A stretch of DNA of 20,000 nucleotides. Origin: an uncultured virus (IMG/VR IMGVR_UViG_3300030085_005071) (Duplodnaviria > Heunggongvirae > Uroviricota > Caudoviricetes). Location of the stretch: positions 56,705-76,704 of the IMG/VR virus record IMGVR_UViG_3300030085_005071, one strand, 5' to 3'. The position numbers and the translations under genes are program-made. Below are positions 1 through 14,555 of this stretch, piece after piece. Within the stretch, counting starts at the first letter, position 1, and every line of letters starts with the position of its first letter. The notes under the pieces are model-generated. The model searched no databases. It was not told the origin of the DNA and worked only from the letters and a program-made list of their open reading frames with translations.

Positions 1-753
1 CATGATCTTCTTTTAGATCTTCAAACAATTATTGGTGGTAAAGTTATTGATAGTGGTTTTGATATGACGTCATTTGAATTAGAAATGTTTGGTTCATGTA
101 AAAAAATAATCATACACAAGAATAAGTCATTGATTATTCGTGATGAGTCAAAGTCTGATAATGAATCAGCTGAGAGAATGAAAGTCATCAAAGAAAAATT
201 GTCATACCCGGGTCTAAGTGAAAACGAAAGGCTTTTGCTTAAATACCGACTCCAGCAATTATCTGGAGGTATAGCCATTCTTAGAGTTGGCGCGGCGACT
301 GAGTCTGAGCTAATCGAGCGCTACGATCGCGTTGATGATGCACTTCATGCAACTCGTGCTGCTTTAGAAGAAGGTGTATTGCCCGGTGGGGGAATAGCGC
401 TGTATCAATTTGCGATCGAACATGAAAGTACTATCGATCATGAACATACTGACAAAGAAGTTATTGTTGGACATGATTTGTTGATCAACGCGTGCAAAGA
501 ACCCTTTAAACAAATTCTAAGTAACGCAGGTTTGTCACATCACAATATCTTAACAAACATACACAAGCACGGTAAAAAAGCTTCTAACGTTGGTTATGAC
601 GTAAGAAATAAACGTTTTGGTGATATGTTTGACCTAGGTGTTATTGATCCTGCAAAGGTTTCTAGGTGTGCTCTAGAAAACGCTGTTTCTGCTGCGACGA
701 TGCTTTTGTCTGCTGATTGTTCTTTAATTGAAGTTAAAAACGAATCTGCTTGA
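1..753 (+). CDS. groEL: Chaperonin GroEL/Cpn60 family, C-terminal part (5' end outside the window); divergent, lacks GGM tail
   Basis: Frame is open from base 1 (HDLLLDLQTIIGGKVI...). GroEL motifs: RLQQLSGGIAILRVGAATESE, RVDDALHATRAA (catalytic Asp equivalent), EGVLPGGG, DMFDLGVIDPAKVSRCALENAVSAA. Ends ...IEVKNESA with no Gly-Gly-Met repeat. Confidence 0.95.
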   Translation, partial: HDLLLDLQTIIGGKVIDSGFDMTSFELEMFGSCKKIIIHKNKSLIIRDESKSDNESAERMKVIKEKLSYPGLSENERLLLKYRLQQLSGGIAILRVGAATESELIERYDRVDDALHATRAALEEGVLPGGGIALYQFAIEHESTIDHEHTDKEVIVGHDLLINACKEPFKQILSNAGLSHHNILTNIHKHGKKASNVGYDVRNKRFGDMFDLGVIDPAKVSRCALENAVSAATMLLSADCSLIEVKNESA

Positions 754-759
754 TATTTA
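753..759 (+). promoter_or_regulatory. ATA(A/T/G)TTA motif (ATATTTA), putative -10-only/late promoter
   Basis: 27 nt before ATG 787. The same motif precedes six other + strand genes at 18-22 nt. Confidence 0.45.
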
Positions 760-786
760 TTTAACACGTAAGCAACAGGAGTAAGT

Positions 787-1116
787 ATGCAAGATTATAA
801 ACTAAAAAGAAAGTTAGCAACTGCAATTGTCAATTTAAAAATTGAGAACGAAGCACACGTTCCTGACTTAATGACTAGAATTAGAATCCTTCCTGGTATA
901 GCCGTTGTCGGTCAAAAAGATAAAGTTGCTCGTTTTTCTGATGGTGACGGCTCACTCTTGCTTAGTATCAAATATTTGCCAGAGTCTGATGAAATATTTA
1001 AAAGTTTAGAAGACATGTCGAAATTAGTTAAACGTTTACCAGGCGTAAAAACAGTAGCAATTGTCACTTTTAATAAGAGGAAAATATCCCTACATGGAAA
1101 AAAATTAATTTTTTAA
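787..1116 (+). CDS. Hypothetical protein (109 aa), weak internal repeat (RILPGIAVV / KRLPGVKTV)
   Basis: AGGAG SD at 777-781, ATG 787; fills the gap between groEL and hsp20. Confidence 0.8.
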   Translation: MQDYKLKRKLATAIVNLKIENEAHVPDLMTRIRILPGIAVVGQKDKVARFSDGDGSLLLSIKYLPESDEIFKSLEDMSKLVKRLPGVKTVAIVTFNKRKISLHGKKLIF

Positions 1117-1145
1117 TTGTAAACACTTTAAACTCAAGATATAAT
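1117..1145 (+). promoter_or_regulatory. Sigma70-type promoter TTGTAA-17bp-TATAAT upstream of hsp20
   Basis: TTGTAA 1117-1122, TATAAT 1140-1145, exact 17-bp spacer. Confidence 0.7.
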
Positions 1146-1190
1146 TCTAGCACCATGTTAAATGGTATACGAAACATAGGAGGAGATTAT

Positions 1191-1586
1191 ATGTTTTTAA
1201 CTGATTTTTTTGATGACAAATATTTTAATTCATACATTTCTGGTAACAATGCCAGACTTAAAACACAGACAAACACACCCTGTAATATCTATCAATCAGA
1301 AGGTTCATACATTTTTGACTTATATTTACCCGGTTTTTCTCGCGATGACTTTGACATAAATATTGATAACAATATTTTATCCGTCAAAGGTACTTCTGAC
1401 TTTGCAAAGAAAAACTACATCCATCAGGAACATGTCCAGGCTGCAAAATTTGAAAGATCCTTTTCTTTGCCGAAAAATGTCAATATTGATAATGTTGATG
1501 CCGACTATACTTCTGGTGTACTGTCAATATCAATTCCAAAATTTGAAGAAAGAAAGCCTCAGGCTAAAAAAATTACTGTTAAATAA
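1191..1586 (+). CDS. Small heat-shock protein, Hsp20/alpha-crystallin family
   Basis: Motifs PCNIYQ, LYLPGFSRDDFDINIDNNILSVKG, FERSFSLP, ADYTSGVLSISIPK and C-terminal IxV (KKITVK). Start moved from 1155 to ATG 1191, which follows a strong AGGAGGAG SD. Confidence 0.93.
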   Translation: MFLTDFFDDKYFNSYISGNNARLKTQTNTPCNIYQSEGSYIFDLYLPGFSRDDFDINIDNNILSVKGTSDFAKKNYIHQEHVQAAKFERSFSLPKNVNIDNVDADYTSGVLSISIPKFEERKPQAKKITVK

Positions 1587-1604
1587 TTAGGTGATTTTAT
1601 ATTT

Positions 1605-1643
1605 TGTGTGCGTTTACATAGAAAATGTAACGCACACATTTTT
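1605..1643 (+). terminator. Intrinsic terminator after hsp20
   Basis: TGTGTGCGTTTACAT (1605-1619), AGAAA loop, ATGTAACGCACACA (1625-1638): a 14-bp stem with one bulge, followed by TTTTT. Confidence 0.75.
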
Positions 1644-1653
1644 ATTGTATAAT
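1625..1653 (+). promoter_or_regulatory. Promoter ATGTAA-17bp-TATAAT upstream of the sigma gene, overlapping the terminator 3' arm
   Basis: ATGTAA 1625-1630, TATAAT 1648-1653, 17-bp spacer; same architecture as the promoters at 1117 and 13235. Confidence 0.6.
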
Positions 1654-1700
1654 ATATACATACAACTACTACAAACTATAAATTAAACATTGGAGACTAC

Positions 1701-2471
1701 ATGGAAAGAACTGTTCTTGAAACATATTTTCGAGATATTAAAAATAAAACTAGTTTACTTACGCGTGAACAAGAAGTTGAATTAGCAAAGCGCATCGAAA
1801 AAGGTGACAAAAGAGCTAGAGATAAGATGATTGAATCGAATCTTCGGCTAGCAATATCAATAGCAAAGCAATACGCAAGGTACGGATCTACGCTAGAAGA
1901 CTTAATTCAAGAATCTAATATTGGTCTCATGAAGGCTGTGGAAAAATTTGATTGGCGAAAAGGTTTTAAATTTTCAACTTATGCATCATGGTGGATCAAA
2001 CAGGCAGTGACTCGTAGTTTAACTTCGAACAGCACACTTCTTAAAGTTCCGTCCCATACTTTAGCAAATGCAAGAAAAATTTGGCAACTCAAGCAAGATT
2101 ACATGGAAGAATTTGGCGTTGAACCTTCTATGGAAGAAATATGTGATGCCCTTGACATGACAGAAAAACATGTCAGATTAGCTATTTCATCGATTAGAAG
2201 TAAAAACATTGCTAGTATCGACCAGCAAATTGGTGAAGAAGGTGCAAGAACACTAGGGGATATTATTCCAGACAATTCATCAACAAACATCGAGCAGATA
2301 CTAGATAATAAAATTATAAGACAGAAGATAATTAAAGCGCTTGGCTCTCTCTCAAAAAGAGAAGAACTAGTTCTTCGTTTGAGATTCGGTCTCGATGAAG
2401 TACTAGAAGACGACAAAAACATTTACGATATCAACGAAAACAACGAAGGAGTTAACAATGGCAATGCCTAA
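1701..2471 (+). CDS. RNA polymerase sigma-70 factor, RpoD/RpoS-like (regions 1.2, 2, 3, 4.1), lacking region 1.1 and the region 4.2 HTH
   Basis: LLTREQEVELAKRI (1.2); MIESNLRLAISIAKQY, DLIQESNIGLMKAVEKFD, GFKFSTYASWWIKQAVTR (2.1-2.4); EPSMEEI, SIDQQIG, TLGDIIPD (3); LSKREELVLRLRFGL (4.1), then an acidic tail and stop. GGAG SD. Confidence 0.93.
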   Translation: MERTVLETYFRDIKNKTSLLTREQEVELAKRIEKGDKRARDKMIESNLRLAISIAKQYARYGSTLEDLIQESNIGLMKAVEKFDWRKGFKFSTYASWWIKQAVTRSLTSNSTLLKVPSHTLANARKIWQLKQDYMEEFGVEPSMEEICDALDMTEKHVRLAISSIRSKNIASIDQQIGEEGARTLGDIIPDNSSTNIEQILDNKIIRQKIIKALGSLSKREELVLRLRFGLDEVLEDDKNIYDINENNEGVNNGNA

Positions 2472-4749: not shown

Positions 4750-6333
4750 ATGTACTATTATTTTCTTGTCTTTCTTCTGTTTGCATGCAATGATTATGCG
4801 ATTAAAAACGAATTAAATATCGGCCCTGAATTAGTTGTTTATCCGGAAAATATTGATTTTGGTCACCTCAAGTCAGGAACTGAATCTGGTCAAGAGGTAT
4901 TCGCGGTAATTAACGCTGGTGACGAAGACTTGGTTATAAGTCACCCAGCTCTTATTTCAAATACTGCTAGATTTAGTCTGGACCCAGATTTACAAGAAAA
5001 TTATACAATCTTGCCCGGTGATACGCAAGAATTTAACATTTACTATACACCTGAGACATATGAAACAGGTGAAGCTATCATCAGCCTTGTATCAAATGAC
5101 GAGGATGAGAATCAGTACGAAATACCAGTGACAGGTTTTGGAGATGCCCCAGTTATATCTGTAACTCCGGAGACATTTGATTACGGGCAAATAAGTATAG
5201 GTTGCGATAATGAAGAAAGAATTACTATTCGCAACGTAGGAAACCTAGAGTTGACTGTTGATAACATTACACAAATGGTGACGTCACCACCGGACATCAT
5301 CATGGAAATGGGATCTTTACCTCCACCACCATGGCATTTAGCGCCAGGACAAGAAGTTGATTTTCTCGTATCTTATATACCGATTGATATTAGCTATGAT
5401 GAAAGTGTAATTAGAGTAGAGAGTAACGATCCTATACTACCGCTAGTTGAAGTTGTGCAGTACGGAGAAGGAGACGTTGAACATTGGCATACACAAACGC
5501 ATGTCCAAGAAGAAATTGCACTTTTAGATGTACTTTTTGTGGTCGATAATTCTGGGTCAATGAATATATTTCAGCAAGAGTTAGGAAGTCAAATGAATGC
5601 ATTCATGAATGTATTTGACAGTTCGGGAGCAGATTATCATCTTGCTGTTATAACTACAGATGAAGCTCGATTTAGACAATACGATGGTTATACTTGGATC
5701 GATCAGACTCACAGAGATCCTGTTTTATGGATGCAGAATGTAATAGCTTCAATAGGTATTCACGGAAGTGGTTTTGAAAGAGGGATAGAGATGGCCAAGT
5801 ACGCACTTGAAGATGACGCAGCACCCGGAAAAGACTACAATAGAGAAAACGCAACCATGGTCATTATATACGTATCAGATGAACCAGATCATTCGCAAGG
5901 AGGATTTACTTCGTACCTTAGTTTCTTTGACAATTTTAAAATCTCACCGAGCTTGATGCGTCAATTTGCTGTCATTGGCGATTATCCAACTGGGTGTCAC
6001 TTTCCTTACTTGAATCGTTCTAGAAATATTACTTTTGGTGGCGGCTACTATGAGATGACCCAAAGATACAACGGAGACTGGTATTCAATATGCGCTGTAG
6101 ATTGGGGGCAGCAAATGCAAAACTTAGCAAACACTGTCACAACGCAACGATCTTTTAATATAGATGAAAGTGATCCGATTGAATCAACAATAATAGTAAC
6201 AGTTAATGGACAAGCTAGTAGTGATTGGGCATACGATTCAATTACAAATTCTGTCATATTTAATGAAGCAAGTATACCTGAACCAGGTCAGACAATTATT
6301 ATAGAGTATGCAGTGTGGGGCTGCGGGGGATGA
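4750..6333 (+). CDS. Putative lipoprotein with two Ig-like (ASH / choice-of-anchor-D-like) domains and a vWA domain
   Basis: Lipobox LLFA-C. Two repeats P..IDFG..../INAGDEDLVI..../SND and P.TFDYG..../IRNVGNLELTV..../SND. vWA MIDAS DVLFVVDNSGSM, later AVITTD and IYVSDE.D; C-terminal VTVNG...W.YD..TNSVIF...P..G..I.IEY. Confidence 0.85.
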   Translation: MYYYFLVFLLFACNDYAIKNELNIGPELVVYPENIDFGHLKSGTESGQEVFAVINAGDEDLVISHPALISNTARFSLDPDLQENYTILPGDTQEFNIYYTPETYETGEAIISLVSNDEDENQYEIPVTGFGDAPVISVTPETFDYGQISIGCDNEERITIRNVGNLELTVDNITQMVTSPPDIIMEMGSLPPPPWHLAPGQEVDFLVSYIPIDISYDESVIRVESNDPILPLVEVVQYGEGDVEHWHTQTHVQEEIALLDVLFVVDNSGSMNIFQQELGSQMNAFMNVFDSSGADYHLAVITTDEARFRQYDGYTWIDQTHRDPVLWMQNVIASIGIHGSGFERGIEMAKYALEDDAAPGKDYNRENATMVIIYVSDEPDHSQGGFTSYLSFFDNFKISPSLMRQFAVIGDYPTGCHFPYLNRSRNITFGGGYYEMTQRYNGDWYSICAVDWGQQMQNLANTVTTQRSFNIDESDPIESTIIVTVNGQASSDWAYDSITNSVIFNEASIPEPGQTIIIEYAVWGCGG

Positions 6334-6833
6334 AGAAAGCTTGGCCGTTAACTGCTGCTTTATTCTTAGGATTCTTAATAGGTTTAACCATTAAGAACGT
6401 TTACAATTTAACTGCAAGACAACCTAATCAATGGAAAGATAGACCGGTTATAGTTAACTGCGCTGGTGACGACATTAAAGAATCAACAATAAAAAGGGCA
6501 GTTAATTTTTGGCATGAAAAAGGTGAAGAAATATATTTTTATGAGTATAGATTTATTGAGAGTGTATGCAAAGATGTTAAATTAATGGACGGGTTTATTA
6601 TTATTACGACTTCAAAAAATGCTAAAAATAGTGATCTCACCTTAGCATCAACAACAAGATCAGCTAGGCTAGGCGTAGTTCAGTCAGCAATTATAGAATT
6701 CAAACCAGGTACACATAATTTTATTTTACTATTAGAGCATGAGCTAGGTCATGCCTTTGGCTACACACACCGAAAGATTCCTGGTCATATCATGCACCCT
6801 TACTATGACATGATGGGGGATAAATTTTGGTAA
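6330..6833 (+). CDS. Membrane-anchored metzincin (matrixin/M10-like) zinc metalloprotease
   Basis: HELGHAFGYTH (HExxHxxGxxH) plus Met-turn IMHP; N-terminal hydrophobic helix. Start placed at ATG 6330 (ATGA overlap). Confidence 0.85.
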   Translation: MKKAWPLTAALFLGFLIGLTIKNVYNLTARQPNQWKDRPVIVNCAGDDIKESTIKRAVNFWHEKGEEIYFYEYRFIESVCKDVKLMDGFIIITTSKNAKNSDLTLASTTRSARLGVVQSAIIEFKPGTHNFILLLEHELGHAFGYTHRKIPGHIMHPYYDMMGDKFW

Positions 6834-6836
6834 CAA

Positions 6837-7643
6837 TTAAAGACCCGAAGCAGTCTCAATTGACATTTGTCGATCTGATTGACCTGCTATAGCTGCAATT
6901 TGAGAATCAGTAAGTGCGACACCGTCGCCAATTTGTATTGAGTCTATTTGACCGGTGACTGATTTTGACCCAAACATCTTCCCAGTGCCAGATGCAAAAC
7001 CACCCCAACCTAACGTCGGGTTTGAAAGTGGAGGGAGTATTTTAGTACCTTGGGGCGCAGTATTTTGGCCATTTTGCATTGTTATTTTGGAGCCATTTAC
7101 AAATAGATCTATGTTTAAAGCAGAACCGGTATCCTTGATCCGAATTGCAAAGTGATTCCAGGTGTTTATAAGCGTAACTGAAACACCGTTTTTAAATTTA
7201 GTAATATTACTAGATCCATTATTATGAATAATTCGTGCAGTCATTGAGTTTGAACCAAGCCCCCAATCACAACCGAATCTTCTTGTTCCAGCGTTACCTC
7301 TACCGAATACCGCTTTATTGCCACTTTGATTGTTACTGACGTTTGAAAGATTTTGCCACCACGATATTGTGAATTCGTCATTTACAGTCTCACCTGTACC
7401 ACTATCGTATGCAACGTATCCATTTGAGTTTAAATTGACAGTAAAATTTCCGGCTGGATGTGTACTAGTATCATTAAAGATCGTGTGCCCAGCTTCTTCT
7501 TCAAAAAAAGTACCTGCCACTTCACCACCGCCACCACCAGACGGACCAACACCTAATACTTTTTCGGCATTTTCTACACTAACACTTAAGACTTTTGTGA
7601 TGTTATCTAATGCTACACCAATGACTTTTGTAAATGTAGACAT
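6837..7643 (-). CDS. LamG / concanavalin-A-like lectin domain protein, probable virion/tail accessory protein
   Basis: FTISWW, INTWNHFAI, LFVNG, GQIDSIQI, ALTDSQIAAI are LamG-like motifs; poly-Gly linker. ATG 7643 overlaps the upstream TAA (TAATG). Confidence 0.8.
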   Translation of the reverse strand: MSTFTKVIGVALDNITKVLSVSVENAEKVLGVGPSGGGGGEVAGTFFEEEAGHTIFNDTSTHPAGNFTVNLNSNGYVAYDSGTGETVNDEFTISWWQNLSNVSNNQSGNKAVFGRGNAGTRRFGCDWGLGSNSMTARIIHNNGSSNITKFKNGVSVTLINTWNHFAIRIKDTGSALNIDLFVNGSKITMQNGQNTAPQGTKILPPLSNPTLGWGGFASGTGKMFGSKSVTGQIDSIQIGDGVALTDSQIAAIAGQSDRQMSIETASGL

Positions 7644-8530
7644 TATAATTCCACCCACGCTGATGACGGATTAAAGTAAATAACATTTGACGTCGTTGTG
7701 CAATAACCCACTACTCTAACAAAGTCACCTGCACCAGACGGAGCAGTAGTATCCATTCCTCCAGCAGTTGTGCTTATGTAGACTGCTTTTCCAGCAGAGA
7801 AATTAGATAAGTAACTGTGTGCATCAAAGAACCCTCTAATTAAAACGCCGTCGGAAGATGGACTAGATCCTAACGCAATTCCTAACAGCTGATCTGCACC
7901 TGATGCAACAGCATCTGCGTCAACTTCAGTCCAAGTAGAAGAAGTATTAAGATAATACAGTTTTCCTGCTGTTAGTGTACCAGATCCGAAAGTTACGACT
8001 TCGCCTCCTCCGGTATCATTAGCCAAACTAGTAGGGTTATGATGTATATCTAATTTTGTAACTGGCGTAGTATTTCCAAAACCAACGTTTCCGTCCACAG
8101 TTAAATTTGTTGCATTTAATAATTGCAGTGAATCCGATCTCAGTCTAGCTGTGATAGTTTGACTTCCTGCTTTTATATTTGCAAATTCTATAATGCCGTC
8201 TTCTGTTCCATCACTGGCATCATTGATTTTACCAGTGATTTTTGAGTATGTGATTTGTTGATCGGCATCATTTTCTCCTAAAAATTTAATTTGCCCTAAG
8301 TAATCTGCATCTGCCGGAGATCCACTGTTTCTTTTTAGAGAGAATACTGGGCCTGCTGTGCTACTATCTTCAGTTGTTTCTAGGCTCAACATTGATTCCG
8401 TGGTTGTTCCAACCACACGTGCACTGCCTGTCACTACAAACGAGTATGTGTCTGTACCTGCAGAACCAGATACGATAATACCTTCTGCAAAACGCATCGT
8501 TGCTGTTCCCATATTTTTAATTTTTGGCAT
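7643..8530 (-). CDS. Probable virion structural protein (tail fibre / decoration-like)
   Basis: G/S/T/A-rich. GNVGFGNTTPVTKLDI beta-repeat; C-terminal LLGIAL...GVLIRG...GKAVYISTTAGGM.TTAPSG.GDFVRVVGYC module typical of phage structural proteins. Start ATG 8530 after GGAG (CTCC 8536-8539). Confidence 0.75.
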   Translation of the reverse strand: MPKIKNMGTATMRFAEGIIVSGSAGTDTYSFVVTGSARVVGTTTESMLSLETTEDSSTAGPVFSLKRNSGSPADADYLGQIKFLGENDADQQITYSKITGKINDASDGTEDGIIEFANIKAGSQTITARLRSDSLQLLNATNLTVDGNVGFGNTTPVTKLDIHHNPTSLANDTGGGEVVTFGSGTLTAGKLYYLNTSSTWTEVDADAVASGADQLLGIALGSSPSSDGVLIRGFFDAHSYLSNFSAGKAVYISTTAGGMDTTAPSGAGDFVRVVGYCTTTSNVIYFNPSSAWVEL

Positions 8531-8534
8531 AATA

Positions 8535-8574
8535 ACTCCGTAAAAACATTGTATAATTATACTTGACACGGAGT
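8535..8574. promoter_or_regulatory. Symmetric divergent promoter/RBS element
   Basis: The perfect palindrome GTATAATTATAC (8551-8562) gives TATAATTA on both strands. It is flanked by the inverted repeat ACTCCGT (8535-8541) / ACGGAGT (8568-8574), which supplies the SD for each divergent gene. Confidence 0.7.
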
Positions 8575-8581
8575 GAATAAC

Positions 8582-8956
8582 ATGCTAGCTAAAATAATTT
8601 CTTTTTTCTCACAAGATATGCTGTACGGAATTGGTTTTTTAATAATTGGACATGCGATGGGATGGTTTGCAGGAAATTCTCAATTTGTTTGGGCGTACTG
8701 GGAGGATAAACCTATTTTGGCTACACTTTTATTTGGCACACCTGCAGGATTGGCTTTTTGGTACGGTTCAAAATATTGTTTTGCTGCGACTGGTGGAGAG
8801 CTTTGGAGTGTACGTTTTATCGCTGCAGTTTTCTCTTACACAGTTTTTCCAATCATGACCTGGTATTTTCTGAATGAGTCAATGTTCACACCCAAAACAA
8901 TGATGTCAGTATTTTTAGCACTTTCTATTCTTTTTGTCCAGATTTATTATAATTAA
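8582..8956 (+). CDS. Small 4-TM membrane protein, DMT/SMR(EamA)-like
   Basis: Four hydrophobic helices; C-terminal FPIMTWYFLNE...KT...V.LA pattern of DMT proteins. GGAG 8570-8573 favours ATG 8582. Confidence 0.65.
   Translation: MLAKIISFFSQDMLYGIGFLIIGHAMGWFAGNSQFVWAYWEDKPILATLLFGTPAGLAFWYGSKYCFAATGGELWSVRFIAAVFSYTVFPIMTWYFLNESMFTPKTMMSVFLALSILFVQIYYN
8949..8955 (+). promoter_or_regulatory. ATAATTA motif, putative -10-only/late promoter of the kinase cluster
   Basis: TATAATTA 21 nt before ATG 8977. Confidence 0.5.
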
Positions 8957-8976: not shown

Positions 8977-9978
8977 ATGAAAGCTAAAAAAGGGGAATGG
9001 TTTTCTTTAAAATGGGAACCAAAGGATTATTATTGTAAAGAATCTTATTTACAACTGACACATTGTCCAGTTTTTGTTTGTGCAGAAAGAGACACAGAAT
9101 CGATATCGTGTGACTTAGAAAATAAGTACCCGAAACTTTCATTGGCATCAATAAAGCGCACATCAATGTTCATAAGTTTAAAGAACGGTATTAAGGTTCC
9201 GACTCATTATCAGATCGGAATGTTAATGCCAGGAGAAGATTTAAAATACGATACATGGTTGCAAAGATATTTCAATATTGATGATGAAGTTTCTGAACAA
9301 ATTAAAAATAAAAACTTATTACAGCAAAAAAGTATTTACTTAGAACATACAGCAAAAATTATAAGACATGATATGCACAGTGGTATCAACACTTATATTC
9401 CGAGAGGCCTGTCAATACTACTTAACAAGTTACCTGAAGAGGTGATAAAAGAACACAAATTAAGTCTAGGGCTACGACTTCTGGAAGAAGGTCTTAAGCA
9501 CTCACAAAAAGTTTACAAAGGTGTTTATGAGTTTACCAATTTAGTAAAAAGAAAACCAGAATTTAATGTCGAGAATCATAATGTAACTAAAGTTCTCAGT
9601 CAACATCTTGAAAGTACTTCTTACAAAGACAAGGTTAATATTTCGGAATTATGTGACATCGAAATTAATAGCACATTATTTACTATTGCTATTGATAATT
9701 TTATTAAGAACGGCATTAAGTATAACAATAATTTTTGCCCTAGGATTGAAATATTCATGAACGATAATAATGAGATAGTTATACAAGATAACGGTATAGG
9801 TATGTCACAAATGGAATACGACATGCAATGCATGCCTTACATGCGTGAAGAAGTAAGTGATGAAAAACCACAAGGACTAGGAATCAACATTGCAAATTCA
9901 ATCTTAGAGGAACACGGTTTTAAAGTTAGTGTTGAAGAGTTAGAAACGGGGACAGCAATAAAAATAAGAGTAAGATGA
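8977..9978 (+). CDS. Sensor histidine kinase (soluble, unknown N-terminal domain)
   Basis: H-box-like LEHTAKIIRHDMHSG; N-box IDNFIKNGIKY; G1 IQDNGIGM; G2 QGLGINI; TGTAIKI. No transmembrane helix in the N-terminal ~115 aa. Confidence 0.88.
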   Translation: MKAKKGEWFSLKWEPKDYYCKESYLQLTHCPVFVCAERDTESISCDLENKYPKLSLASIKRTSMFISLKNGIKVPTHYQIGMLMPGEDLKYDTWLQRYFNIDDEVSEQIKNKNLLQQKSIYLEHTAKIIRHDMHSGINTYIPRGLSILLNKLPEEVIKEHKLSLGLRLLEEGLKHSQKVYKGVYEFTNLVKRKPEFNVENHNVTKVLSQHLESTSYKDKVNISELCDIEINSTLFTIAIDNFIKNGIKYNNNFCPRIEIFMNDNNEIVIQDNGIGMSQMEYDMQCMPYMREEVSDEKPQGLGINIANSILEEHGFKVSVEELETGTAIKIRVR

Positions 9979-9979
9979 A

Positions 9980-10930
9980 ATGAGTATTGATAAATTAATA
10001 GCAAAATTTAAATTCATGAATATTTTGGTTGATAAGATAAGCACACAGTCAAAAGTCTGCTTGATTGTTTCTCTTTTGATACTTGCTAGCTTGTTTGCAA
10101 TTCAAAGCCTGATTGTGTTTCGTGTTTATGAGCCCAGCTACAATCTTGCTCTAATAGATTATATTTGTGTTGTTATTTTTATGATACCTTTTTCTGTCTT
10201 TATAAGGGATTTTTTACTTAGTGTCAAAAATAATGAGAAAGAGTTATTAAAAGAAGTTCTAGAAAAAAACACTTACTTAGAACACGCTGCAAAAATACTT
10301 CGCCATGACATGCATAGTGGGCTCAACACTTACATTCCAAGAGGAATAAGATCATTAGAGAGAAGATTGCCAGAAGAATTGGTAAAAGAGCACAAGCTTG
10401 AATCACCACTTAGACTTTTAAAGGAAGGCTTGGTCCACTCTCAACAGGTCTACAAAGGTGTATACGAATTTACTAATCTTGTCAGGAAAGATGCAACGCT
10501 TCATTTAGAGTTAGTAGATATTGGGGAGGCACTCGAGACTCACTTAAAAAGAACAAGTTACTGCGATCAAGTTTTATTATCAGAAGACTTACCCACAATT
10601 AATATCAATGAGGCACTCTTTTGCACAGCAATTGACAACTTGATCAGGAACGGCTTGAAGTACAATGACAGCAAAACTAAACAAGTCAGAATAGAAATGA
10701 TAGATACACATACACTTGCAGTCATAGATAATGGTCGTGGTTTGTCTAGTCAAGAATTTAAAGAATTATGTAAACCCTATACACGAAAAACTAATCAAAA
10801 AGAAATAGGCTCCGGATTAGGATTAAACATCTGCGTCGCCATACTTAAGGAACATGGGTTTAGCATATCTGCGCAAAAACTGCAACAAGGCACAATGATA
10901 AAAGTGGGGATCAATAATGGAAATGATTAA
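9980..10930 (+). CDS. Sensor histidine kinase with two N-terminal TM helices
   Basis: Two hydrophobic helices with a short loop; LEHAAKILRHDMHSG; IDNLIRNGLKY; VIDNGRGL; GSGLGLNI; QGTMIKV. Confidence 0.9.
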   Translation: MSIDKLIAKFKFMNILVDKISTQSKVCLIVSLLILASLFAIQSLIVFRVYEPSYNLALIDYICVVIFMIPFSVFIRDFLLSVKNNEKELLKEVLEKNTYLEHAAKILRHDMHSGLNTYIPRGIRSLERRLPEELVKEHKLESPLRLLKEGLVHSQQVYKGVYEFTNLVRKDATLHLELVDIGEALETHLKRTSYCDQVLLSEDLPTININEALFCTAIDNLIRNGLKYNDSKTKQVRIEMIDTHTLAVIDNGRGLSSQEFKELCKPYTRKTNQKEIGSGLGLNICVAILKEHGFSISAQKLQQGTMIKVGINNGND

Positions 10931-11354
10931 TTCAATTTTACTAGTAGACGATGAGTGTTTATTTCATCTGGTATTTGAAGATGCGTGTAGTCTTCTTGAC
11001 ATAACACTTAATTTAGAATCAATTGATTCTGCCGATGAAGCTGCTAGGTTATTTGATGCATGGAAGTCTACACCAGAAAAGAAACCGGACTGCGTTTTTG
11101 TTGATTTAAATATCATAGGCTCATCATTTAACGGCATTGAATTAATTCGTAAGATTAATTTTGAATATGGGAATGGTGTGGTCATTGGTATTATATCTTC
11201 TTCAGCAGACAGTGAAGAAATAGCAAAGGCTGTCCAAGCTGGTGCACAATTTTGGATTGTCAAGTCAGACGATATCGAGCCGAGACTAGAAGAGTTTAAA
11301 AAAGATTACAGCGGTTATGTGGATAGAACAGGAAGTTTTAAGGTATATAAATGA
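10917..11354 (+). CDS. Single-domain response regulator (receiver only, CheY-like)
   Basis: ILLVDD acidic pocket; PDCVFVD phospho-acceptor; NGIELIRKI; IGIISSS; AGAQFWIVK conserved Lys; no output domain. Confidence 0.9.
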   Translation: MEMINSILLVDDECLFHLVFEDACSLLDITLNLESIDSADEAARLFDAWKSTPEKKPDCVFVDLNIIGSSFNGIELIRKINFEYGNGVVIGIISSSADSEEIAKAVQAGAQFWIVKSDDIEPRLEEFKKDYSGYVDRTGSFKVYK

Positions 11355-11914
11355 AAATAACAAGAAGACAATTAAAGAATATTGTTCTAAGGGAGTTTAA
11401 GGAAACCGGGCAGAATTTTTACGATATATTTTCCGATACTCCTCCACCTGAAGCTGTACAAGATCGAGGTGATGGTGGCGGTAGAATTCATCAGGTAGTA
11501 TTTGTTGGTAACGACTATAATGATCCTAGTTCTTGGCGGTCAATTCCAGTAAACATGAGCATTTTAAATGCAATGAGAAACGCTTTTGATTCTCTTTCTA
11601 GAGAAACGCAAAGAACGCTATATTCTTATATGGGTGGTATGATTACAGTACCTGATAATGAGAAAGCCAGTTTAAATGAGTTAGGAAAGTTGTATCGTGA
11701 AATGTTAAATAGTCAATTTGAGACAGTTCCGCAACCTAATATTAGAGAATATTACGCAGTTTTTCACCCAAGTTTTGCAGCTCATGGAAAAAATACACCA
11801 GAAGGCCAAGAAAAAGCATTAGCGTTTTACAGATCAGTTGCAGGATACATGCCTGACAGAGAACTGCTTAGCGAGTATGAATTCATAATGCATAGTTCGA
11901 GTGCGCTATATTGA
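11351..11914 (+). CDS. Hypothetical protein with MKITRRQL leader
   Basis: MKITRRQLKNIVLRE; ATGA overlap with the receiver gene. Confidence 0.8.
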   Translation: MKITRRQLKNIVLREFKETGQNFYDIFSDTPPPEAVQDRGDGGGRIHQVVFVGNDYNDPSSWRSIPVNMSILNAMRNAFDSLSRETQRTLYSYMGGMITVPDNEKASLNELGKLYREMLNSQFETVPQPNIREYYAVFHPSFAAHGKNTPEGQEKALAFYRSVAGYMPDRELLSEYEFIMHSSSALY

Positions 11915-11917
11915 GTC

Positions 11918-12484
11918 ATGAATTTTAGCAAAGAAGATATACAACAGCTTTTACATCTAGCTAAAGAGAGACGCGTTTATCTTGAAGGTAACATCATAAA
12001 AATCATCAAGACAGACAATGAAGATTTTAAAAAGTATCTTAAGGAAGCAAAAGAAAAGGATAATGAAACCAGAAAGAAACGATTAGAAATCACAAGGCAA
12101 GTTCAAGATCAGAACAAACAATTGGCAGCGAAAGCAAAAGAAAATGAGTCGCTGATGTTAGAGCTTAAGGAAGCGTTAGAACAGGCAGAAGGTGCAAAAG
12201 AATCTGCATTAAATGATCTAGACCTCATGCAAAAGAAAACTCAGTTTGAACTAATTGGTAACATTGTCAACGTTGCACTCTGGATCATTGTAGGTGTAGG
12301 AGTCATGACGACAATACTATATATGGTTGCATTATACACCAAAGGCTCCGGAGCTGACACTACGCTTATTGGAAACACATGGTCTAACTTATTAGGCATA
12401 CTATTAACAAACTCTTTTAGCATAATAGGTACTATTATGGGTGTTAAGTACGCTAGTGAAAACAGTAAAAAGGAAGAAAAGTGA
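11918..12484 (+). CDS. Coiled-coil protein with two C-terminal TM helices
   Basis: Long K/E/Q/L heptad region (aa ~35-105), then IVNVALWIIVGVGVMTTILYMVAL and WSNLLGILLTNSFSIIGTIMGV. Confidence 0.8.
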   Translation: MNFSKEDIQQLLHLAKERRVYLEGNIIKIIKTDNEDFKKYLKEAKEKDNETRKKRLEITRQVQDQNKQLAAKAKENESLMLELKEALEQAEGAKESALNDLDLMQKKTQFELIGNIVNVALWIIVGVGVMTTILYMVALYTKGSGADTTLIGNTWSNLLGILLTNSFSIIGTIMGVKYASENSKKEEK

Positions 12485-13271: not shown

Positions 13272-13611
13272 GGGCCGCTAATGGCTTCGACGGAATAGAA
13301 TCAAGGAGACAGTGCAAGCAGGTGAGACGCGACCTCAACAGTTCAAACAATTTAGTTGCAAATAATAACGCACACTTCGAATCTGTAGCTTTAGCTGCTT
13401 AATCGGGTGGTTGCCTCTGACCATCTTTCCAATAGAGGCTTTAGCAGTTGGAGCTGCCAAGAAATAAAATGACAACAGTCCTCCCACATCACAGCAGAGG
13501 CAAAAAAGCGGTGGATATCCCTGTTATCCGGAGAAAAATGATAACTATGCTTGTGAATGACTAGAACTAAGACTATTGCGGACGTGGGTTCGACTCCCAC
13601 GCGGTCCACCA
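13272..13611 (+). ncRNA. ssrA: tmRNA (one-piece, 340 nt), tag (A)ANNNAHFESVALAA*
   Basis: 5' GGGCCGC pairs with 3' GCGGTCC-A-CCA, including the G3:U alanyl determinant. 5' TGGCTTCGACGG motif; T-arm GTGGGTTCGACTCCCAC. Resume codon GCA 13358 after TAGTT; tag ORF 13358-13402 ends in ALAA-TAA. Confidence 0.95.
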
Positions 13612-13621
13612 TTTTTTTAAT

Positions 13622-13671
13622 TTTTCATATTCAGCCGTATAATTATAGACTGCAGAGGTGGAATATGAAAA
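13622..13671 (+). promoter_or_regulatory. Hairpin occluding start codon 13665, with TATAATTA motif in its loop
   Basis: TTTTCATATTC (13622-13632) is the exact reverse complement of GAATATGAAAA (13661-13671). ATAATTA at 13639-13645, 19 nt before the ATG. Confidence 0.65.
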
Positions 13672-14555
13672 TTACAAGAAGACAACTTATGTCATTGATT
13701 ATCGAAGGATTACGTGACGTAAAGTATTTTGACAAAGACATACAGCAGATTGACGCGTCAGACATGTCAAAAAAAGAATTAATGCAGATGTATGGTAGCA
13801 AAACAGGTAGGTTGGCTATCGGTGCAAAAATTAAAAATTTTAGCAAAATGTTTGGTATGCTAGATCTTGATGTCGATGTTTTTTTTGTTCCTAGGCAAAT
13901 ACTTTACACTGCCTTTAAAGATACGTTTTCTCACCTCTCAACAGGAGATATAGAAAACTTGACTAATCCCATGCAAAGTGTAATTAATAACGAAAAAAGC
14001 ACGACAGCAATTAATTTTAAGTCAAAATTATCTTCGATTGCGACGGGAGCTAAAAGCGAAGAAATCAACAGGTTGACGGACAGTATTAACACAGACGGTC
14101 TGACAATCATAGTTCAGACAAAAGAAGGTACACGGCAGCCTAGCAATAGCTTTTTAGATATTAGTCTACCTTGGATATTGCATGATATAGGACATAGTGT
14201 TATCGACGTCGAGTCACCAGGAATACATAACATATTTAAAAGTGTTAAAGGTGTCTTCGGTAAAACTGGATTAAGAGGACGCGGAGGAGACAAATTAGGT
14301 GGAGAGAGAATGGATCTTATGCTCCAGACAAAATATCCAGATCTATACAAGTTTTTCCAGGAAAACAATTTTACTAATACTCTGCAACCACATGATGTTT
14401 ACGCTTCACTATTCGCTTATTATTTAGTTTATAAAGATTTTCCTCCCCAATTAGATGGAGAAGACAGAGGTAAGCTAGGGTATATTTTCGATAATGTTAT
14501 TGACTCTCTAAAGGGAAGGGTTTATATTATGGACATGTATGAGCTAAATAAATGA
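13665..14555 (+). CDS. Hypothetical protein with MKITRRQL leader; HDxGH motif
   Basis: Start moved from 13557 (inside the tmRNA) to ATG 13665 after GAGGTG. MKITRRQLMSLIIE; PWILHDIGH. Confidence 0.8.
   Translation: MKITRRQLMSLIIEGLRDVKYFDKDIQQIDASDMSKKELMQMYGSKTGRLAIGAKIKNFSKMFGMLDLDVDVFFVPRQILYTAFKDTFSHLSTGDIENLTNPMQSVINNEKSTTAINFKSKLSSIATGAKSEEINRLTDSINTDGLTIIVQTKEGTRQPSNSFLDISLPWILHDIGHSVIDVESPGIHNIFKSVKGVFGKTGLRGRGGDKLGGERMDLMLQTKYPDLYKFFQENNFTNTLQPHDVYASLFAYYLVYKDFPPQLDGEDRGKLGYIFDNVIDSLKGRVYIMDMYELNK

What the first reader, a model, noticed from the sequence alone, without database searches (positions are those of the whole stretch)
8977..12484. Apparently phage-encoded two-component signalling system: two paralogous kinases, a stand-alone receiver and a membrane coiled-coil protein
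Seen: two tandem kinases share an unusual His-rich H-box (YLEH-x-AKI-x-RHDMHSG-x-NTYIPRG) and an identical VYKGVYEFTNLV segment but have different inputs. One has a soluble N-terminus with four Cys; the other has two TM helices with almost no external loop. They are followed by a receiver with no output domain. Known: complete two-component systems are standard in cells but unusual in phages; described phage sensing relies on arbitrium peptides or LuxR-type receptors. Inference: a viral phosphorelay that integrates a cytoplasmic and a membrane signal and acts through protein-protein contact, for example on lysis timing, superinfection sensing or hijacking host signalling.
Basis: partly seen in the sequence, partly recalled or inferred. 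Interest (0 to 1): 0.82.

Follow-up and report, generated by a model that had tools for sequence, protein, structure and literature searches.

The report
Phage two-kinase relay to membrane hairpin
A giant marine phage carries its own bacterial-style sensing circuit (two sensor kinases, one small phospho-receiver and a virus-only membrane protein); hundreds of uncultured phages share this set, often beside their cell-bursting genes, so it probably lets the virus time host lysis by what it senses, though nothing has been tested at the bench.

Summary
Window 8977-12484 encodes two paralogous histidine kinases (52% identical over 217 aa), a 145-aa receiver without an output domain, and a coiled-coil protein ending in a two-helix membrane hairpin (TMCC). 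One unrelated gene lies between receiver and TMCC.

The contig is viral: an IMG/VR record, about 31% complete, colinear with a 236.6-kb relative that has terminase, portal, capsid, two sheaths and baseplate.

Kinase(s), receiver and TMCC form a fixed module. Every testable locus in two independent samples has it (72 of 72 and 67 of 67). Receiver and TMCC genes overlap in 61 of 72. Only 1 GTDB species genome matched the pattern scan.

Relatives swap the kinase sensor (membrane-only, PAS, GAF+PAS). Some fuse kinase to receiver. Others fuse GAF or PAS directly to the hairpin with no kinase or receiver nearby. So the hairpin is the likely output.

In 34 of 65 non-identical loci an endolysin lies within 5 kb (35 hits near, 1 far). 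It is directly adjacent in 19 of 33.

Best reading (inferred): a phage circuit that gates a holin-like membrane effector to time lysis.

Caveats: this phage has no endolysin nearby, the four Cys are not conserved, and there is no biochemical evidence. The scan has found this module before on other DNA.

The parts
8573..8956 (+). Small polytopic membrane protein (127 aa from GTG 8573; an in-frame ATG lies at 8582). It is the first gene of the same-strand run that contains the module. Its association with the module is loose.
   Evidence: ORF. It sits 20 nt upstream of HK-A. It is 83% identical in the colinear relative G005. A homologue lies near the module in 3 of 81 loci and in 8 of the 80 loci of the second sample. 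No Pfam or PHROG family.
8977..9978 (+). HK-A: a soluble histidine kinase. Residues 1-~105 form an unassigned alpha/beta domain. Then come the DHp helices, with H131 in RHDMHSG as the likely phospho-acceptor, and the HATPase_c domain.
   Evidence: HATPase_c E 6.8e-12. No hydrophobic segment. The AF2 model has mean pLDDT 72.6; residues 107-333 align to solved DHp-CA kinases with Z 14-16. The N-domain has only 22 homologues, all kinases of 330-348 aa. Its invariant residues are W8, F9, W13, VPTHY74-78, MPG84-86, YD91-92 and W94, not the Cys.
9980..10930 (+). HK-B: a membrane histidine kinase with two membrane helices and a very short outer loop (the intramembrane-sensing type). H109 in RHDMHSG is the likely phospho-acceptor. 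The ATP-binding boxes are intact.
   Evidence: HATPase_c E 9.3e-14. Hydrophobic segments within residues 20-51 and 52-83. Invariant in 32 family members: H102, R108, H109, D110, M111, H112, G114; N220/N224; D250, N251, G252, G254; G279, L280, G281. The family profile matches HK853 (2c2a) at E 1.3e-11 over the second DHp helix plus the CA domain. Its start lies 1 nt after the HK-A stop.
10917..11354 (+). Stand-alone receiver (145 aa), with D63 as the likely phospho-acceptor Asp, plus a conserved C-terminal tail of about 25 residues. No output domain.
   Evidence: Response_reg 45.6 bits against a 30.2 cut-off, residues 7-117. Invariant in 50 orthologues: D11, D12, D63, S94-S96, W113, K116, and the tail residues D118, I120, E121, P122, R123, L124, F127, D130, F141, Y144. 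Mean column identity 81%. It overlaps the HK-B stop by 14 nt. Natural kinase-receiver fusions exist.
11351..11914 (+). Inserted 187-aa gene that is not part of the conserved module. It carries the N-terminal leader MKITRRQLKNIVLRE, which at least 9 genes of the contig share.
   Evidence: No homologue in any related locus (0 loci) and no family hit. The leader family is shown. G005 has a different leader-bearing gene in the same slot.
11918..12484 (+). TMCC, a virus-only membrane protein and the proposed output of the module. [quoted passage not shown]
   Evidence: Alignment of 55 orthologues. AF2 model with mean pLDDT 83.9: helices 5-18, 26-29, 35-144 and 148-187. The family has 271 representatives among 1.84 billion proteins. 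Atlas clusters are 100% Viruses/Uroviricota. The only BFVD fold match at E <= 0.001 is a family member. It lies downstream of the receiver in every testable locus.

Best explanation
This is a genuine phage-encoded two-component module of an uncultured marine jumbo myovirus.

Two paralogous class-I-type histidine kinases, one soluble (HK-A) and one intramembrane-sensing (HK-B), autophosphorylate on the His of RHDMHSG. Both pass the phosphate to D63 of one stand-alone receiver. The receiver has no DNA-binding or enzymatic domain, so it acts by contact.

Its most likely target is the small cytoplasmic N-domain of the virus-only protein TMCC. That domain's coiled coil runs straight into a two-helix membrane hairpin. 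The hairpin is the effector. It works like a regulated holin or antiholin in the host inner membrane, so the phage can advance or delay membrane permeabilisation and lysis according to cytoplasmic and membrane cues.

Shown here:
- gene content, domains and catalytic residues;
- viral origin;
- fixed linkage of the three module parts;
- domain-swap variants;
- linkage to endolysin genes in relatives.

Inferred:
- phosphotransfer;
- receiver-TMCC contact;
- the membrane action and its direction;
- the signals sensed.
For: Viral origin:
- G000 is an IMG/VR virus record, 31% complete by CheckV.
- 67 of 86 ORFs are colinear with G005.
- G005 has a terminase large subunit (phrog_2, 1e-53), portal (phrog_213, 3e-72), major head protein (phrog_138, 6e-74), two tail sheaths and baseplate parts.

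Intact two-component parts:
- Both kinases have HATPase_c and the receiver has Response_reg, all above cut-off.
- H-box and ATP-box residues are invariant in 32 kinases.
- D11, D12, D63, S94-96 and K116 are invariant in 50 receivers.
- The HK-A model has a DHp-CA fold, Z 14-16.

Cognate pair:
- 3 of the 5 longer relatives of the receiver are kinase-receiver fusions.
- One of them, P0313, has the same H-box and a receiver 74% identical to this one.

Fixed module:
- In 81 loci found through HK-B, the receiver is present in 76 and TMCC in 72. The other nine loci end within about 950 nt of the last module gene detected.
- In 80 loci found independently through TMCC, the receiver lies upstream in 72 of 72 testable and kinase(s) in 67 of 67. 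There are 36 loci with one kinase and 31 with two.
- The receiver stop and TMCC start overlap by 4 or 1 nt in 61 of 72.
- Flanking genes are not shared. Apart from the four module genes, no ORF of this contig matches more than 13 of the 81 loci.

Hairpin as the output:
- GAF-coiled coil-hairpin (P0162) and PAS-PAS-coiled coil-hairpin (P0197, P0201) fusions exist.
- P0162 is full length on three IMG/VR contigs with no kinase or receiver hit in the flanks held, 1.9 to 6 kb a side.
- Its GAF part is 44-68% identical to matches in other IMG/VR loci, some on contigs that hold the module; those matches were not mapped onto the kinase genes. The PAS-PAS part of P0197 is 32-52% identical to matches in loci that carry the module.
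- The TMCC N-domain plus coiled coil is also found fused to HATPase_c kinase cores, so it behaves as a signal-input domain. This holds for 5 of the 13 long hits given to Pfam; 3 of those 5 also hit HisKA weakly, below its cut-off.

Link to lysis:
- 34 of 65 non-identical loci have an endolysin homologue of varying enzyme class (GH19, GH24, GH108, Amidase_3, PG-binding) within 5 kb.
- That is 35 hits in 514,639 nt near, against 1 hit in 333,019 nt at 5-10 kb.
- Replicated in the second sample: 17 of 63 new loci.
- The endolysin is directly adjacent in 19 of 33 loci, with at most one gene between in 27 of 33. This includes TMCC followed by the endolysin with a 4-nt overlap in L021.
- 2 of the 3 one-component GAF-hairpin loci also have GH19 within about 1 kb.

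Marine DNA: near-identical sequence occurs in runs of two further studies (X3, X4).
Against: - In this phage and in G005, the only endolysin homologues that the six query types found lie 38 kb (a PG-binding-domain protein) and 58 kb (Amidase_2) from the module, so the lysis link rests on relatives.
- 31 of 65 loci showed no endolysin within 5 kb. Only six endolysin query types were used, so this is a lower bound on linkage.
- TMCC matches no known holin family or solved or viral fold.
- 7 of 33 endolysin-linked loci have another small membrane ORF beside the endolysin, by a crude hydropathy test. TMCC may therefore regulate a holin rather than be one.
- The fusion of the N-domain to kinase cores could mean that it senses something other than the receiver. 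Their genomic context could not be obtained.
- HisKA (Pfam) does not match the DHp region at E <= 0.01.
- No phosphotransfer, binding, expression timing or lysis phenotype is known.
Confidence: 0.5

Rival explanations
1. TMCC is an accessory co-sensor for the loop-less membrane kinase, in the way intramembrane-sensing kinases use partner membrane proteins. The free receiver acts elsewhere, on a host protein such as a host signalling, motility or proteolysis component. The phage would then be hijacking host physiology, not gating its own membrane effector.
For: - HK-B has two membrane helices and almost no outer loop. Kinases of that build typically depend on partner membrane proteins (recalled: BceS-BceAB, LiaS-LiaF).
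- The receiver is far more conserved than kinase or TMCC: mean column identity 81% against 58% for TMCC, across phages that share almost no other gene. This would fit a conserved host target.
- The TMCC N-domain occurs as the input domain of kinases.
Against: - GAF- or PAS-coiled coil-hairpin fusions that stand alone, without kinase or receiver, make sense only if the hairpin is an output.
- Many module kinases are PAS or GAF proteins that need no membrane co-sensor, yet TMCC is always present.
- Receiver and TMCC genes overlap in 61 of 72 loci.
Confidence: 0.2
2. The module does control the membrane hairpin, but for a purpose other than lysis timing. Examples would be tuning host membrane potential or ion flux during the long infection of a jumbo phage, superinfection exclusion, or countering a host defence that signals through small molecules read by the GAF or PAS sensors.
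For: - This phage and its 236.6-kb relative keep the module far from their endolysin homologues.
- 31 of 65 loci lack a detected endolysin nearby.
- TMCC resembles no holin family.
- Sensor domains vary widely, as expected when the input is under diversifying pressure.
Against: - Endolysin density is about 20-fold higher within 5 kb than at 5-10 kb, across four or more unrelated endolysin classes.
- TMCC sits in the holin position directly before the endolysin in L021, L028, L054 and L070.
- Only 7 of 33 linked loci have another candidate holin beside the endolysin.
Confidence: 0.2
3. The stretch is cellular DNA: a host two-component operon on a misclassified contig, or a recent passive pick-up with no phage function.
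For: - Kinase and receiver belong to superfamilies that are overwhelmingly cellular.
- No virion gene was found on the 76.7-kb contig itself.
- One relative lies in a genome bin labelled Verrucomicrobia.
Against: - The contig is colinear with a record that encodes a full virion module.
- 259 (kinase) and at least 461 (TMCC) IMG/VR contigs carry relatives, against 1 locus in 185,579 species genomes.
- That one locus is a 13.5-kb one-strand contig with phage-type topoisomerase genes.
- TMCC clusters are 100% viral.
- Closest family members are 50-84% identical across phages that share little else, which is not the pattern of a recent passive capture.
Confidence: 0.02

Closest known systems
Class I (HisKA-type) two-component systems with a single-domain receiver, for example Thermotoga maritima HK853-RR468 (PDB 2c2a, 3dge, 5uht)
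   Same: - Same DHp-CA kinase core. The family profile matches 2c2a at E 1.3e-11 and the HK-A model aligns to 5uht_A at Z 14.2.
- H-D/E motif at the phospho-acceptor.
- An adjacent receiver without an output domain.
   Different: - Carried by phages, not cells.
- The H-box is a distinct invariant RHDMHSG.NTY.PRG, and Pfam HisKA does not match it.
- Two kinases feed one receiver.
- The module always includes a virus-only membrane protein.
Phage T4 lysis inhibition: holin T with antiholins RI (periplasmic) and RIII (cytoplasmic)
   Same: A phage delays or triggers lysis in response to a sensed signal through proteins that bind the holin. This includes a cytoplasmic regulator and a holin with a small cytoplasmic N-domain (abstracts of PMC8385771 and PMC11413866).
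   Different: - No kinase, receiver or phosphorylation is involved in T4.
- T has one membrane helix and a large periplasmic domain; TMCC has a cytoplasmic coiled coil and a hairpin.
- There is no sequence or fold relation.
- The T4 signal is superinfection; here the sensors are PAS, GAF, membrane-only or unknown.
LytSR two-component system with the holin/antiholin-like LrgAB and CidAB proteins of staphylococci
   Same: A two-component system tied to holin-like membrane proteins and autolysis (PMC2996381 and PMC5717393, seen as search listing and start of abstract only).
   Different: - Cellular, not viral.
- LytR is a DNA-binding regulator that acts on transcription (recalled). The receiver here has no output domain, and the control is inferred to be post-translational.
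- LytS belongs to another kinase family (recalled).
Previously reported phage-borne two-component genes: agrC of C. difficile phage phiCDHM1, and phoR/phoB-annotated genes on soil viral contigs
   Same: Histidine kinase genes carried by phages (PMC6127314 passages; PMC10987575 passages).
   Different: - phiCDHM1 has no response regulator.
- The phoR and phoB genes are host-like copies proposed to act on the host Pho regulon.
- Neither forms a phage-specific kinase-receiver-effector module, and neither is linked to lysis genes.
CheA-CheY and other pathways in which a stand-alone receiver acts by binding a target protein
   Same: An output-less receiver whose phosphorylated form would bind a partner. 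The conserved aromatic three residues before the Lys (W113, K116) sits where CheY has its switch Tyr (recalled).
   Different: The kinase is not CheA-like, and the proposed target is a membrane hairpin protein rather than a motor switch. The similarity is one of working logic only.

Membership tests
Sensor histidine kinase (class I, HisKA-type) | HATPase_c catalytic domain with N, G1 and G2 boxes | tested here: met
   Pfam PF02518 at 46.3 and 52.2 bits against a 26.4 cut-off. N220/N224, D250-N251-G252-x-G254 and G279-L280-G281 are invariant in 32 sequences.
Sensor histidine kinase (class I, HisKA-type) | DHp helical hairpin carrying the phospho-acceptor His followed by an acidic residue | tested here: inconclusive
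   - Pfam HisKA gives no hit at E <= 0.01.
- R-H-D is invariant (H109 in HK-B, H131 in HK-A).
- The second DHp helix aligns to HK853.
- Model residues 107-333 align to DHp-CA structures at Z 14-16, but pLDDT is below 50 for residues 107-135.
- Which of the three His is phosphorylated is inferred from the motif.
Sensor histidine kinase (class I, HisKA-type) | Autophosphorylation and transfer to a cognate receiver | not testable with these tools
   Indirect evidence only: adjacency in all testable loci and natural kinase-receiver fusions.
Response regulator receiver (CheY-like), stand-alone | Receiver fold with acidic pair, phospho-Asp, Ser/Thr and Lys | tested here: met
   PF00072 at 45.6 bits against a 30.2 cut-off. 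D11, D12, D63, S94-S96 and K116 are invariant in 50 sequences. The roles of these residues are assigned from established knowledge of CheY (recalled).
Response regulator receiver (CheY-like), stand-alone | No output domain | tested here: met
   The protein is 145 aa and the only Pfam hit covers residues 7-117. The rest is a conserved tail of about 25 residues.
Holins (any described family) | Sequence or profile match to a described holin family | tested here: not met
   - No holin family in Pfam (only weak DUF2207_C and GLE1, below cut-off), PHROGs or NCBIfam.
- Atlas neighbours are unnamed viral clusters.
- The only BFVD match at E <= 0.001 is an uncharacterised family member.

TMCC is therefore not filed as a holin. 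The claim is only that it may work like one.
Holins (any described family) | Small membrane protein encoded beside the endolysin | tested here: inconclusive
   - Two membrane helices, with both ends inferred to be cytoplasmic.
- The module is directly adjacent to an endolysin in 19 of 33 linked loci, and TMCC sits immediately before it in L021, L028, L054 and L070.
- In this window and in G005 no endolysin is near.
- TMCC, at 188 aa, is larger than typical holins (recalled).
Holins (any described family) | Forms membrane lesions that release or activate endolysin | not testable with these tools
   This needs expression and lysis assays.
LytSR-type control of holin-like genes | Response regulator with a DNA-binding (LytTR) output that controls transcription | tested here: not met
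   The receiver has no second domain.
Tailed jumbo phage (Caudoviricetes, contractile tail) | Terminase, portal, major capsid protein, tail sheath | tested here: inconclusive
   - None lies on the 76.7-kb contig itself.
- All are present on the colinear relative G005.
- The contig holds phage-type replication and nucleotide genes, a ClpP-like head maturation protease hit and endolysins.

The most novel reading that the evidence does not exclude
Many large aquatic phages run a programmable lysis clock. A phosphorylation switch of their own (kinase to receiver) docks on the cytoplasmic domain of a new class of holin-like hairpin protein and gates hole formation after translation. Evolution re-aims the clock simply by swapping the sensor: membrane-only, PAS, GAF, a new soluble domain, or a direct sensor-hairpin fusion. 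This would be the first two-component system whose output is a membrane-permeabilising protein, and the first general signal-controlled lysis mechanism in phages beyond T4-type lysis inhibition.
Probability: 0.4. Interest if true: 0.88.

Novelty: new variant of a known kind. Interest (0 to 1): 0.78.

Why it matters
Lysis timing sets burst size and phage fitness. It has been seen mainly as a holin-intrinsic clock, with T4-type lysis inhibition as the special case.

A phage-owned, sensor-swappable phosphorylation circuit wired to a membrane effector would show that large phages take physiological decisions during infection using bacterial signalling hardware. It would add a new output class to two-component signalling and a new family of candidate holins or antiholins. 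It would also offer a compact, modular part set (sensor, receiver, membrane effector) for controlled lysis in laboratory strains.

The module is abundant, on at least 461 IMG/VR contigs. I found no description of it in six full-text searches:
- searches returned no paper on such a module, judged from titles, abstract starts and passages of four papers;
- the four exact phrases about phage- or virus-encoded kinases, two-component systems or response regulators, and 'viral histidine kinase', occurred in no paper;
- concerned LytSR only.

Subscription journals are not covered by these searches.

Tried and rejected
- **Complex prediction.** Complex prediction (receiver plus TMCC 1-112) was not available. 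Receiver-TMCC contact therefore stays untested.
- **Terminase and capsid on the contig.**
  - Pfam Terminase_6N hit only G003 among five records.
  - That terminase protein found nothing in G000, G001, G002 or G004.
  - Terminase_6C hit none of five records.
  - Viral identity was settled instead by fetching G005 and scanning it with PHROGs.
- **Cultured relatives.**
  - blastn of the region against 50,697 phage records found no match.
  - tblastn of HK-B found one weak hit, 32.7% over 34% of the query.
  - DnaE is at most 29.7% identical to any record.
  - No cultured relative was identified.
- **Context of the N-domain-kinase fusions.** The IMG/VR scan with P0286 found none. The metagenome scan with P0273 returned only distant kinases (24-34%) and N-domain pieces. 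Their neighbourhood is unknown.
- **Fold of the HK-A N-domain.** Atlas feature scores of 0.76-0.77 (STAS, PAS) are at chance level. The all-PDB structural search was filled by kinase cores covering residues 107-333, so the N-domain was effectively not tested. It remains unassigned.
- **Four-Cys metal or redox sensor.** Rejected, because the Cys are not conserved.
- **Promoter and terminator scan.** 45 promoter-like sites against 26.8 +/- 5.7 in shuffles, and 4 terminator-like sites against 3.9. These are too unspecific to define the operon. A TATAAT at 8552-8557 before the first gene is noted but not relied on.
- **Expression.** One marine metatranscriptome library (X20) held a 146-nt piece of a 156-nt contig inside HK-B and a 198-nt contig inside the inserted gene. 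Such libraries can contain DNA, so this does not show transcription.
- **Likely assembly chimeras.** A TMCC N-half fused to a FecCD permease (P0219, one 1,478-nt contig) and one fused to an RNA-polymerase domain (P0159) were set aside.
- The hydropathy script stopped on a mis-framed start for the 8573 gene. The values for HK-A, HK-B, the receiver, the inserted gene and TMCC had already printed and are the ones used.
- **Earlier notes.** The look-up by place for this genome held nothing.

Full report
**What is there.** The window is the last 20 kb of a single 76,704-base contig. On the + strand, tightly packed, lie six genes:
- a small polytopic membrane protein (8573-8956);
- HK-A (8977-9978, 333 aa);
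- HK-B (9980-10930, 316 aa);
- a receiver (10917-11354, 145 aa);
- a 187-aa gene (11351-11914);
- a 188-aa coiled-coil membrane protein, here called TMCC (11918-12484).

Gaps between them are +20, +1, -14, -4 and +3 nt, and the next gene overlaps TMCC by 4 nt, so they look like one transcription unit. The consensus promoter and terminator scan is too unspecific to prove this.

Both kinases hit HATPase_c and the receiver hits Response_reg, all above Pfam's cut-offs. HisKA does not hit. HK-A has no hydrophobic segment. HK-B has two, with a loop of roughly ten residues.

**Is it viral?** The genome search states that G000 is an IMG/VR virus record with a CheckV completeness of 31%. The contig itself encodes:
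- DnaB, ribonucleotide reductase and a DnaE-type polymerase;
- ThyX, thymidine kinase and dCMP deaminase;
- two 5'-3' exonucleases and a ClpP-like head maturation protease hit;
- two endolysin-type proteins;
- GroEL, Hsp20 and a sigma-70 factor.

Nearly all genes lie on one strand and more than half have no family. No terminase or capsid hit was found.

The TMCC search led to a 236,652-base IMG/VR record, G005. Its TMCC is 89% identical. Of the 86 ORFs of the contig, 67 have homologues there in the same order. G005 encodes a terminase large subunit (phrog_2, 1e-53), portal (3e-72), major head protein (6e-74), two tail sheath paralogues, and baseplate hub and wedge proteins (sheath).

The window therefore belongs to an uncultured jumbo myovirus. 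Near-identical DNA occurs in marine metagenome runs of at least two studies besides the possible source. No cultured phage is close.

**The kinases and the receiver look functional and cognate.**
- In 32 kinases of the family, the motif Y-L-E-H...I.R-H-D-M-H.G.N.Y.P.G is invariant, and so are the ATP-binding boxes.
- The family profile aligns the stretch holding VYKGVYEFTNLV to the second DHp helix of HK853 (2c2a, E 1.3e-11). This places the RHD histidine about where HK853 has its phospho-acceptor (the spacing argument is mine).
- An AlphaFold model of HK-A (mean pLDDT 72.6) aligns over residues 107-333 with solved DHp-CA kinases at Z 14-16.
- In 50 receivers, D11, D12, D63, S94-96, W113 and K116 are invariant. 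A conserved C-terminal tail follows, and mean column identity is 81%.
- Among five longer relatives of the receiver, three are kinase-receiver fusions. P0313 has the same H-box and a receiver 74% identical to the one here. This argues that this kinase family serves this receiver family.

**A fixed three-part module in otherwise unrelated phages.** A pattern scan with HK-B found 259 IMG/VR contigs. In the GTDB species genomes it found one locus, a 13.5-kb contig of a Verrucomicrobia bin that has the whole module plus phage-type topoisomerase genes.
- In these 81 loci the receiver is present in 76 and TMCC in 72. The nine exceptions end within about 950 nt of the last module gene detected.
The receiver was upstream in 72 of 72 testable loci and kinase genes in 67 of 67. 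There were 36 loci with one kinase and 31 with two.
- The receiver stop and TMCC start overlap by 4 or 1 nt in 61 of 72 loci.
- By contrast, apart from the four module genes, no ORF of this contig matches more than 13 of the 81 loci.
- The 187-aa gene between receiver and TMCC is an insertion special to this lineage. G005 has a different gene with the same leader in that slot.

**What the variants say about the wiring.** Kinases of related modules carry different sensors: two membrane helices only, PAS, PAS-PAS, or GAF+PAS. The soluble N-domain of HK-A is a narrow subfamily with 22 homologues. Its conserved residues are aromatic and Pro/Gly positions, not the four Cys.

A full HMMER search with the TMCC profile found only 271 representatives among 1.84 billion proteins. 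Thirteen of the long hits were given to Pfam:
- P0162 is GAF-coiled coil-hairpin.
- P0197 and P0201 are PAS(-PAS)-coiled coil-hairpin.
- Five (P0266, P0273, P0283, P0286, P0292) have the TMCC N-domain and coiled coil fused to a HATPase_c kinase core in place of the hairpin. Three of the five also hit HisKA weakly, below its cut-off.

The GAF-hairpin protein is full length on three IMG/VR contigs, with no kinase or receiver hit in the flanks held, 1.9 to 6 kb a side. Its GAF part is 44-68% identical to matches in other IMG/VR loci, some on contigs that hold the module; I did not map those matches onto the kinase genes. The PAS-PAS part of P0197 is 32-52% identical to matches in loci that carry the module.

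The simplest reading is that the hairpin is an output domain and the N-domain of TMCC is an input domain. A cytoplasmic sensor drives the hairpin either directly (one component) or through kinase and receiver (the module). The TMCC model fits this reading: a small helical N-domain, then one unbroken helix 35-144 that continues into the first membrane helix, a turn, and the second helix (mean pLDDT 83.9). The second helix is nearly invariant and unusually polar (W155, N157, T164, N165, S168, T172, K177, Y178).

**Link to lysis.** I used six endolysin proteins taken from these loci as queries (GH19, GH24 phage lysozyme, GH108, Amidase_3, Amidase_2, and a PG-binding protein).
- Of 65 non-identical loci, 34 have an endolysin homologue within 5 kb of the module. 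That is 35 hits in 514,639 nt, against 1 hit in 333,019 nt in the 5-10 kb zone of the same loci.
- The second locus sample gave 17 of 63.
- The endolysin is the direct neighbour in 19 of 33 loci: 15 just before the first kinase and 4 just after TMCC. At most one gene lies between in 27 of 33.
- In L021, TMCC and the lysozyme gene overlap by 4 nt, the classical holin-endolysin arrangement.
- The enzyme class changes while the linkage stays.
- Two of the three one-component GAF-hairpin loci also have GH19 within about 1 kb.
- Only 7 of 33 loci have another small membrane ORF beside the endolysin, by a crude hydropathy test.

This is the basis for proposing that the hairpin works like a holin or a holin regulator.

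**Evidence against, and limits.**
- In this phage and G005 the endolysin homologues that these queries found are 38 kb and 58 kb from the module.
- 31 of 65 loci showed no nearby endolysin with my limited query set.
- TMCC matches no holin family and no solved or viral fold outside its own family.
- The N-domain-kinase fusions could mean that the N-domain senses something other than the receiver, and their context could not be found.
- The complex predictor was unavailable.
- The RNA evidence is two short contigs in one library and does not show transcription.

**Comparison with what is known.**
- The kinase-receiver pair works like, and largely qualifies as, a class I two-component system with a stand-alone receiver, such as HK853-RR468.
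- The proposed control of lysis resembles T4 lysis inhibition in logic: antiholins RI and RIII act on holin T (abstracts of PMC8385771 and PMC11413866).
- It resembles LytSR-LrgAB in linking a two-component system to holin-like proteins (search listing only). It differs from both in parts and mechanism.
- Phage-borne kinase genes have been reported: agrC in phiCDHM1, without a regulator (PMC6127314 passages), and phoR/phoB-type genes on soil viral contigs (PMC10987575 passages).
- A jumbo-phage comparative review mentions only a divergent receiver-like domain that lies outside histidine-kinase systems (PMC7824862 passages).
- Searches turned up no paper describing this module, judged from titles, abstract starts and passages of four papers. 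In one search the four phrases about phage- or virus-encoded kinases, two-component systems or response regulators, and 'viral histidine kinase', occurred in no paper. Subscription journals are not covered.

**Earlier notes of this scan.** After my own analyses I looked up earlier notes. The same module has been reported repeatedly on other genomes, with the same reading. These are unchecked AI notes and do not count as independent support.

**Verdict.** That the module is a real, conserved, phage-specific signalling unit is very likely (about 0.9). That the receiver signals to TMCC is likely (about 0.6). That the outcome is lysis timing is plausible (about 0.5).

Noticed in passing
window 13272-13611 (+): A full-length tmRNA gene encoded by the phage. 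ARAGORN gives the tag peptide ANNNAHFESVALAA. Rfam RF00023 scores 83.9 bits, E 1.4e-31, covering model positions 1-374 of 374. It overlaps the listed start of ORF 13557-14555, whose real start is probably the ATG at 13665.
   Followed up: partly
window 11351, 13665, 14566, 15758 by pattern; 12481 and 15370 by eye; contig positions 28627, 35386, 47235: At least nine genes of the contig begin with the same leader of about 15 residues, MK(I/L)(T/S)+++L..hh.E. Seven matched the pattern and two more were seen. Their bodies are unrelated.

G005 has five such genes, one of them inside its virion module. Metagenome contigs match only the stretch at about 11349-11375, the start of this leader, with unlike flanks (table 7).

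The leader may be a capsid-targeting or protease-cleaved propeptide, like the leaders of T4 internal proteins. That comparison is recalled and was not tested.
   Followed up: partly
window 1-2471 (+): A chaperone and transcription cluster: the GroEL C-terminal part (the full gene is 536 aa on the contig), a 109-aa ORF, Hsp20, and a sigma-70 family factor with regions 1.2, 2 and 3 and only a weak, sub-threshold trace of region 4. The contig also holds an Fe/Mn superoxide dismutase C-terminal domain, NifU, Fpg and a ClpP-like protease.
   Followed up: no
window 6315-6833 (+): A 172-aa protein with an N-terminal hydrophobic anchor and a metzincin-type motif, HELGHAFGYTH (Pfam Peptidase_M10, E 8.7e-6). 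It is the only candidate envelope-degrading enzyme within 3 kb of the module in this phage. Whether it has any role in lysis is unknown.
   Followed up: no
window 6837-8569 (-): Two Gly/Ser/Thr-rich, fibre-like ORFs (273 and 308 aa) are the only long minus-strand genes in the window. They coincide with a local reversal of GC skew. They have no homologue in the related loci and only a 36-aa match in G005.
   Followed up: no
window 4750-6333 (+): A 527-aa protein with a hydrophobic N-terminus, ASH/HYDIN-type Ig-like domains and a weak von Willebrand A domain. It may be a surface or adhesion protein.
   Followed up: no
proteins P0266, P0273, P0283, P0286, P0292 (no locus held): The N-domain and coiled coil of TMCC occur fused to HATPase_c kinase cores, three of which also hit HisKA weakly, below its cut-off. 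The P0273 cluster was seen on contigs up to 100,868 nt. Their genomic context could not be retrieved.
   Followed up: partly
L049:10686-11210: In one related phage a YceI-like gene (Pfam E 2.2e-45) sits between the GAF-PAS kinase and the receiver. This is another example of genes being inserted inside the module.
   Followed up: no
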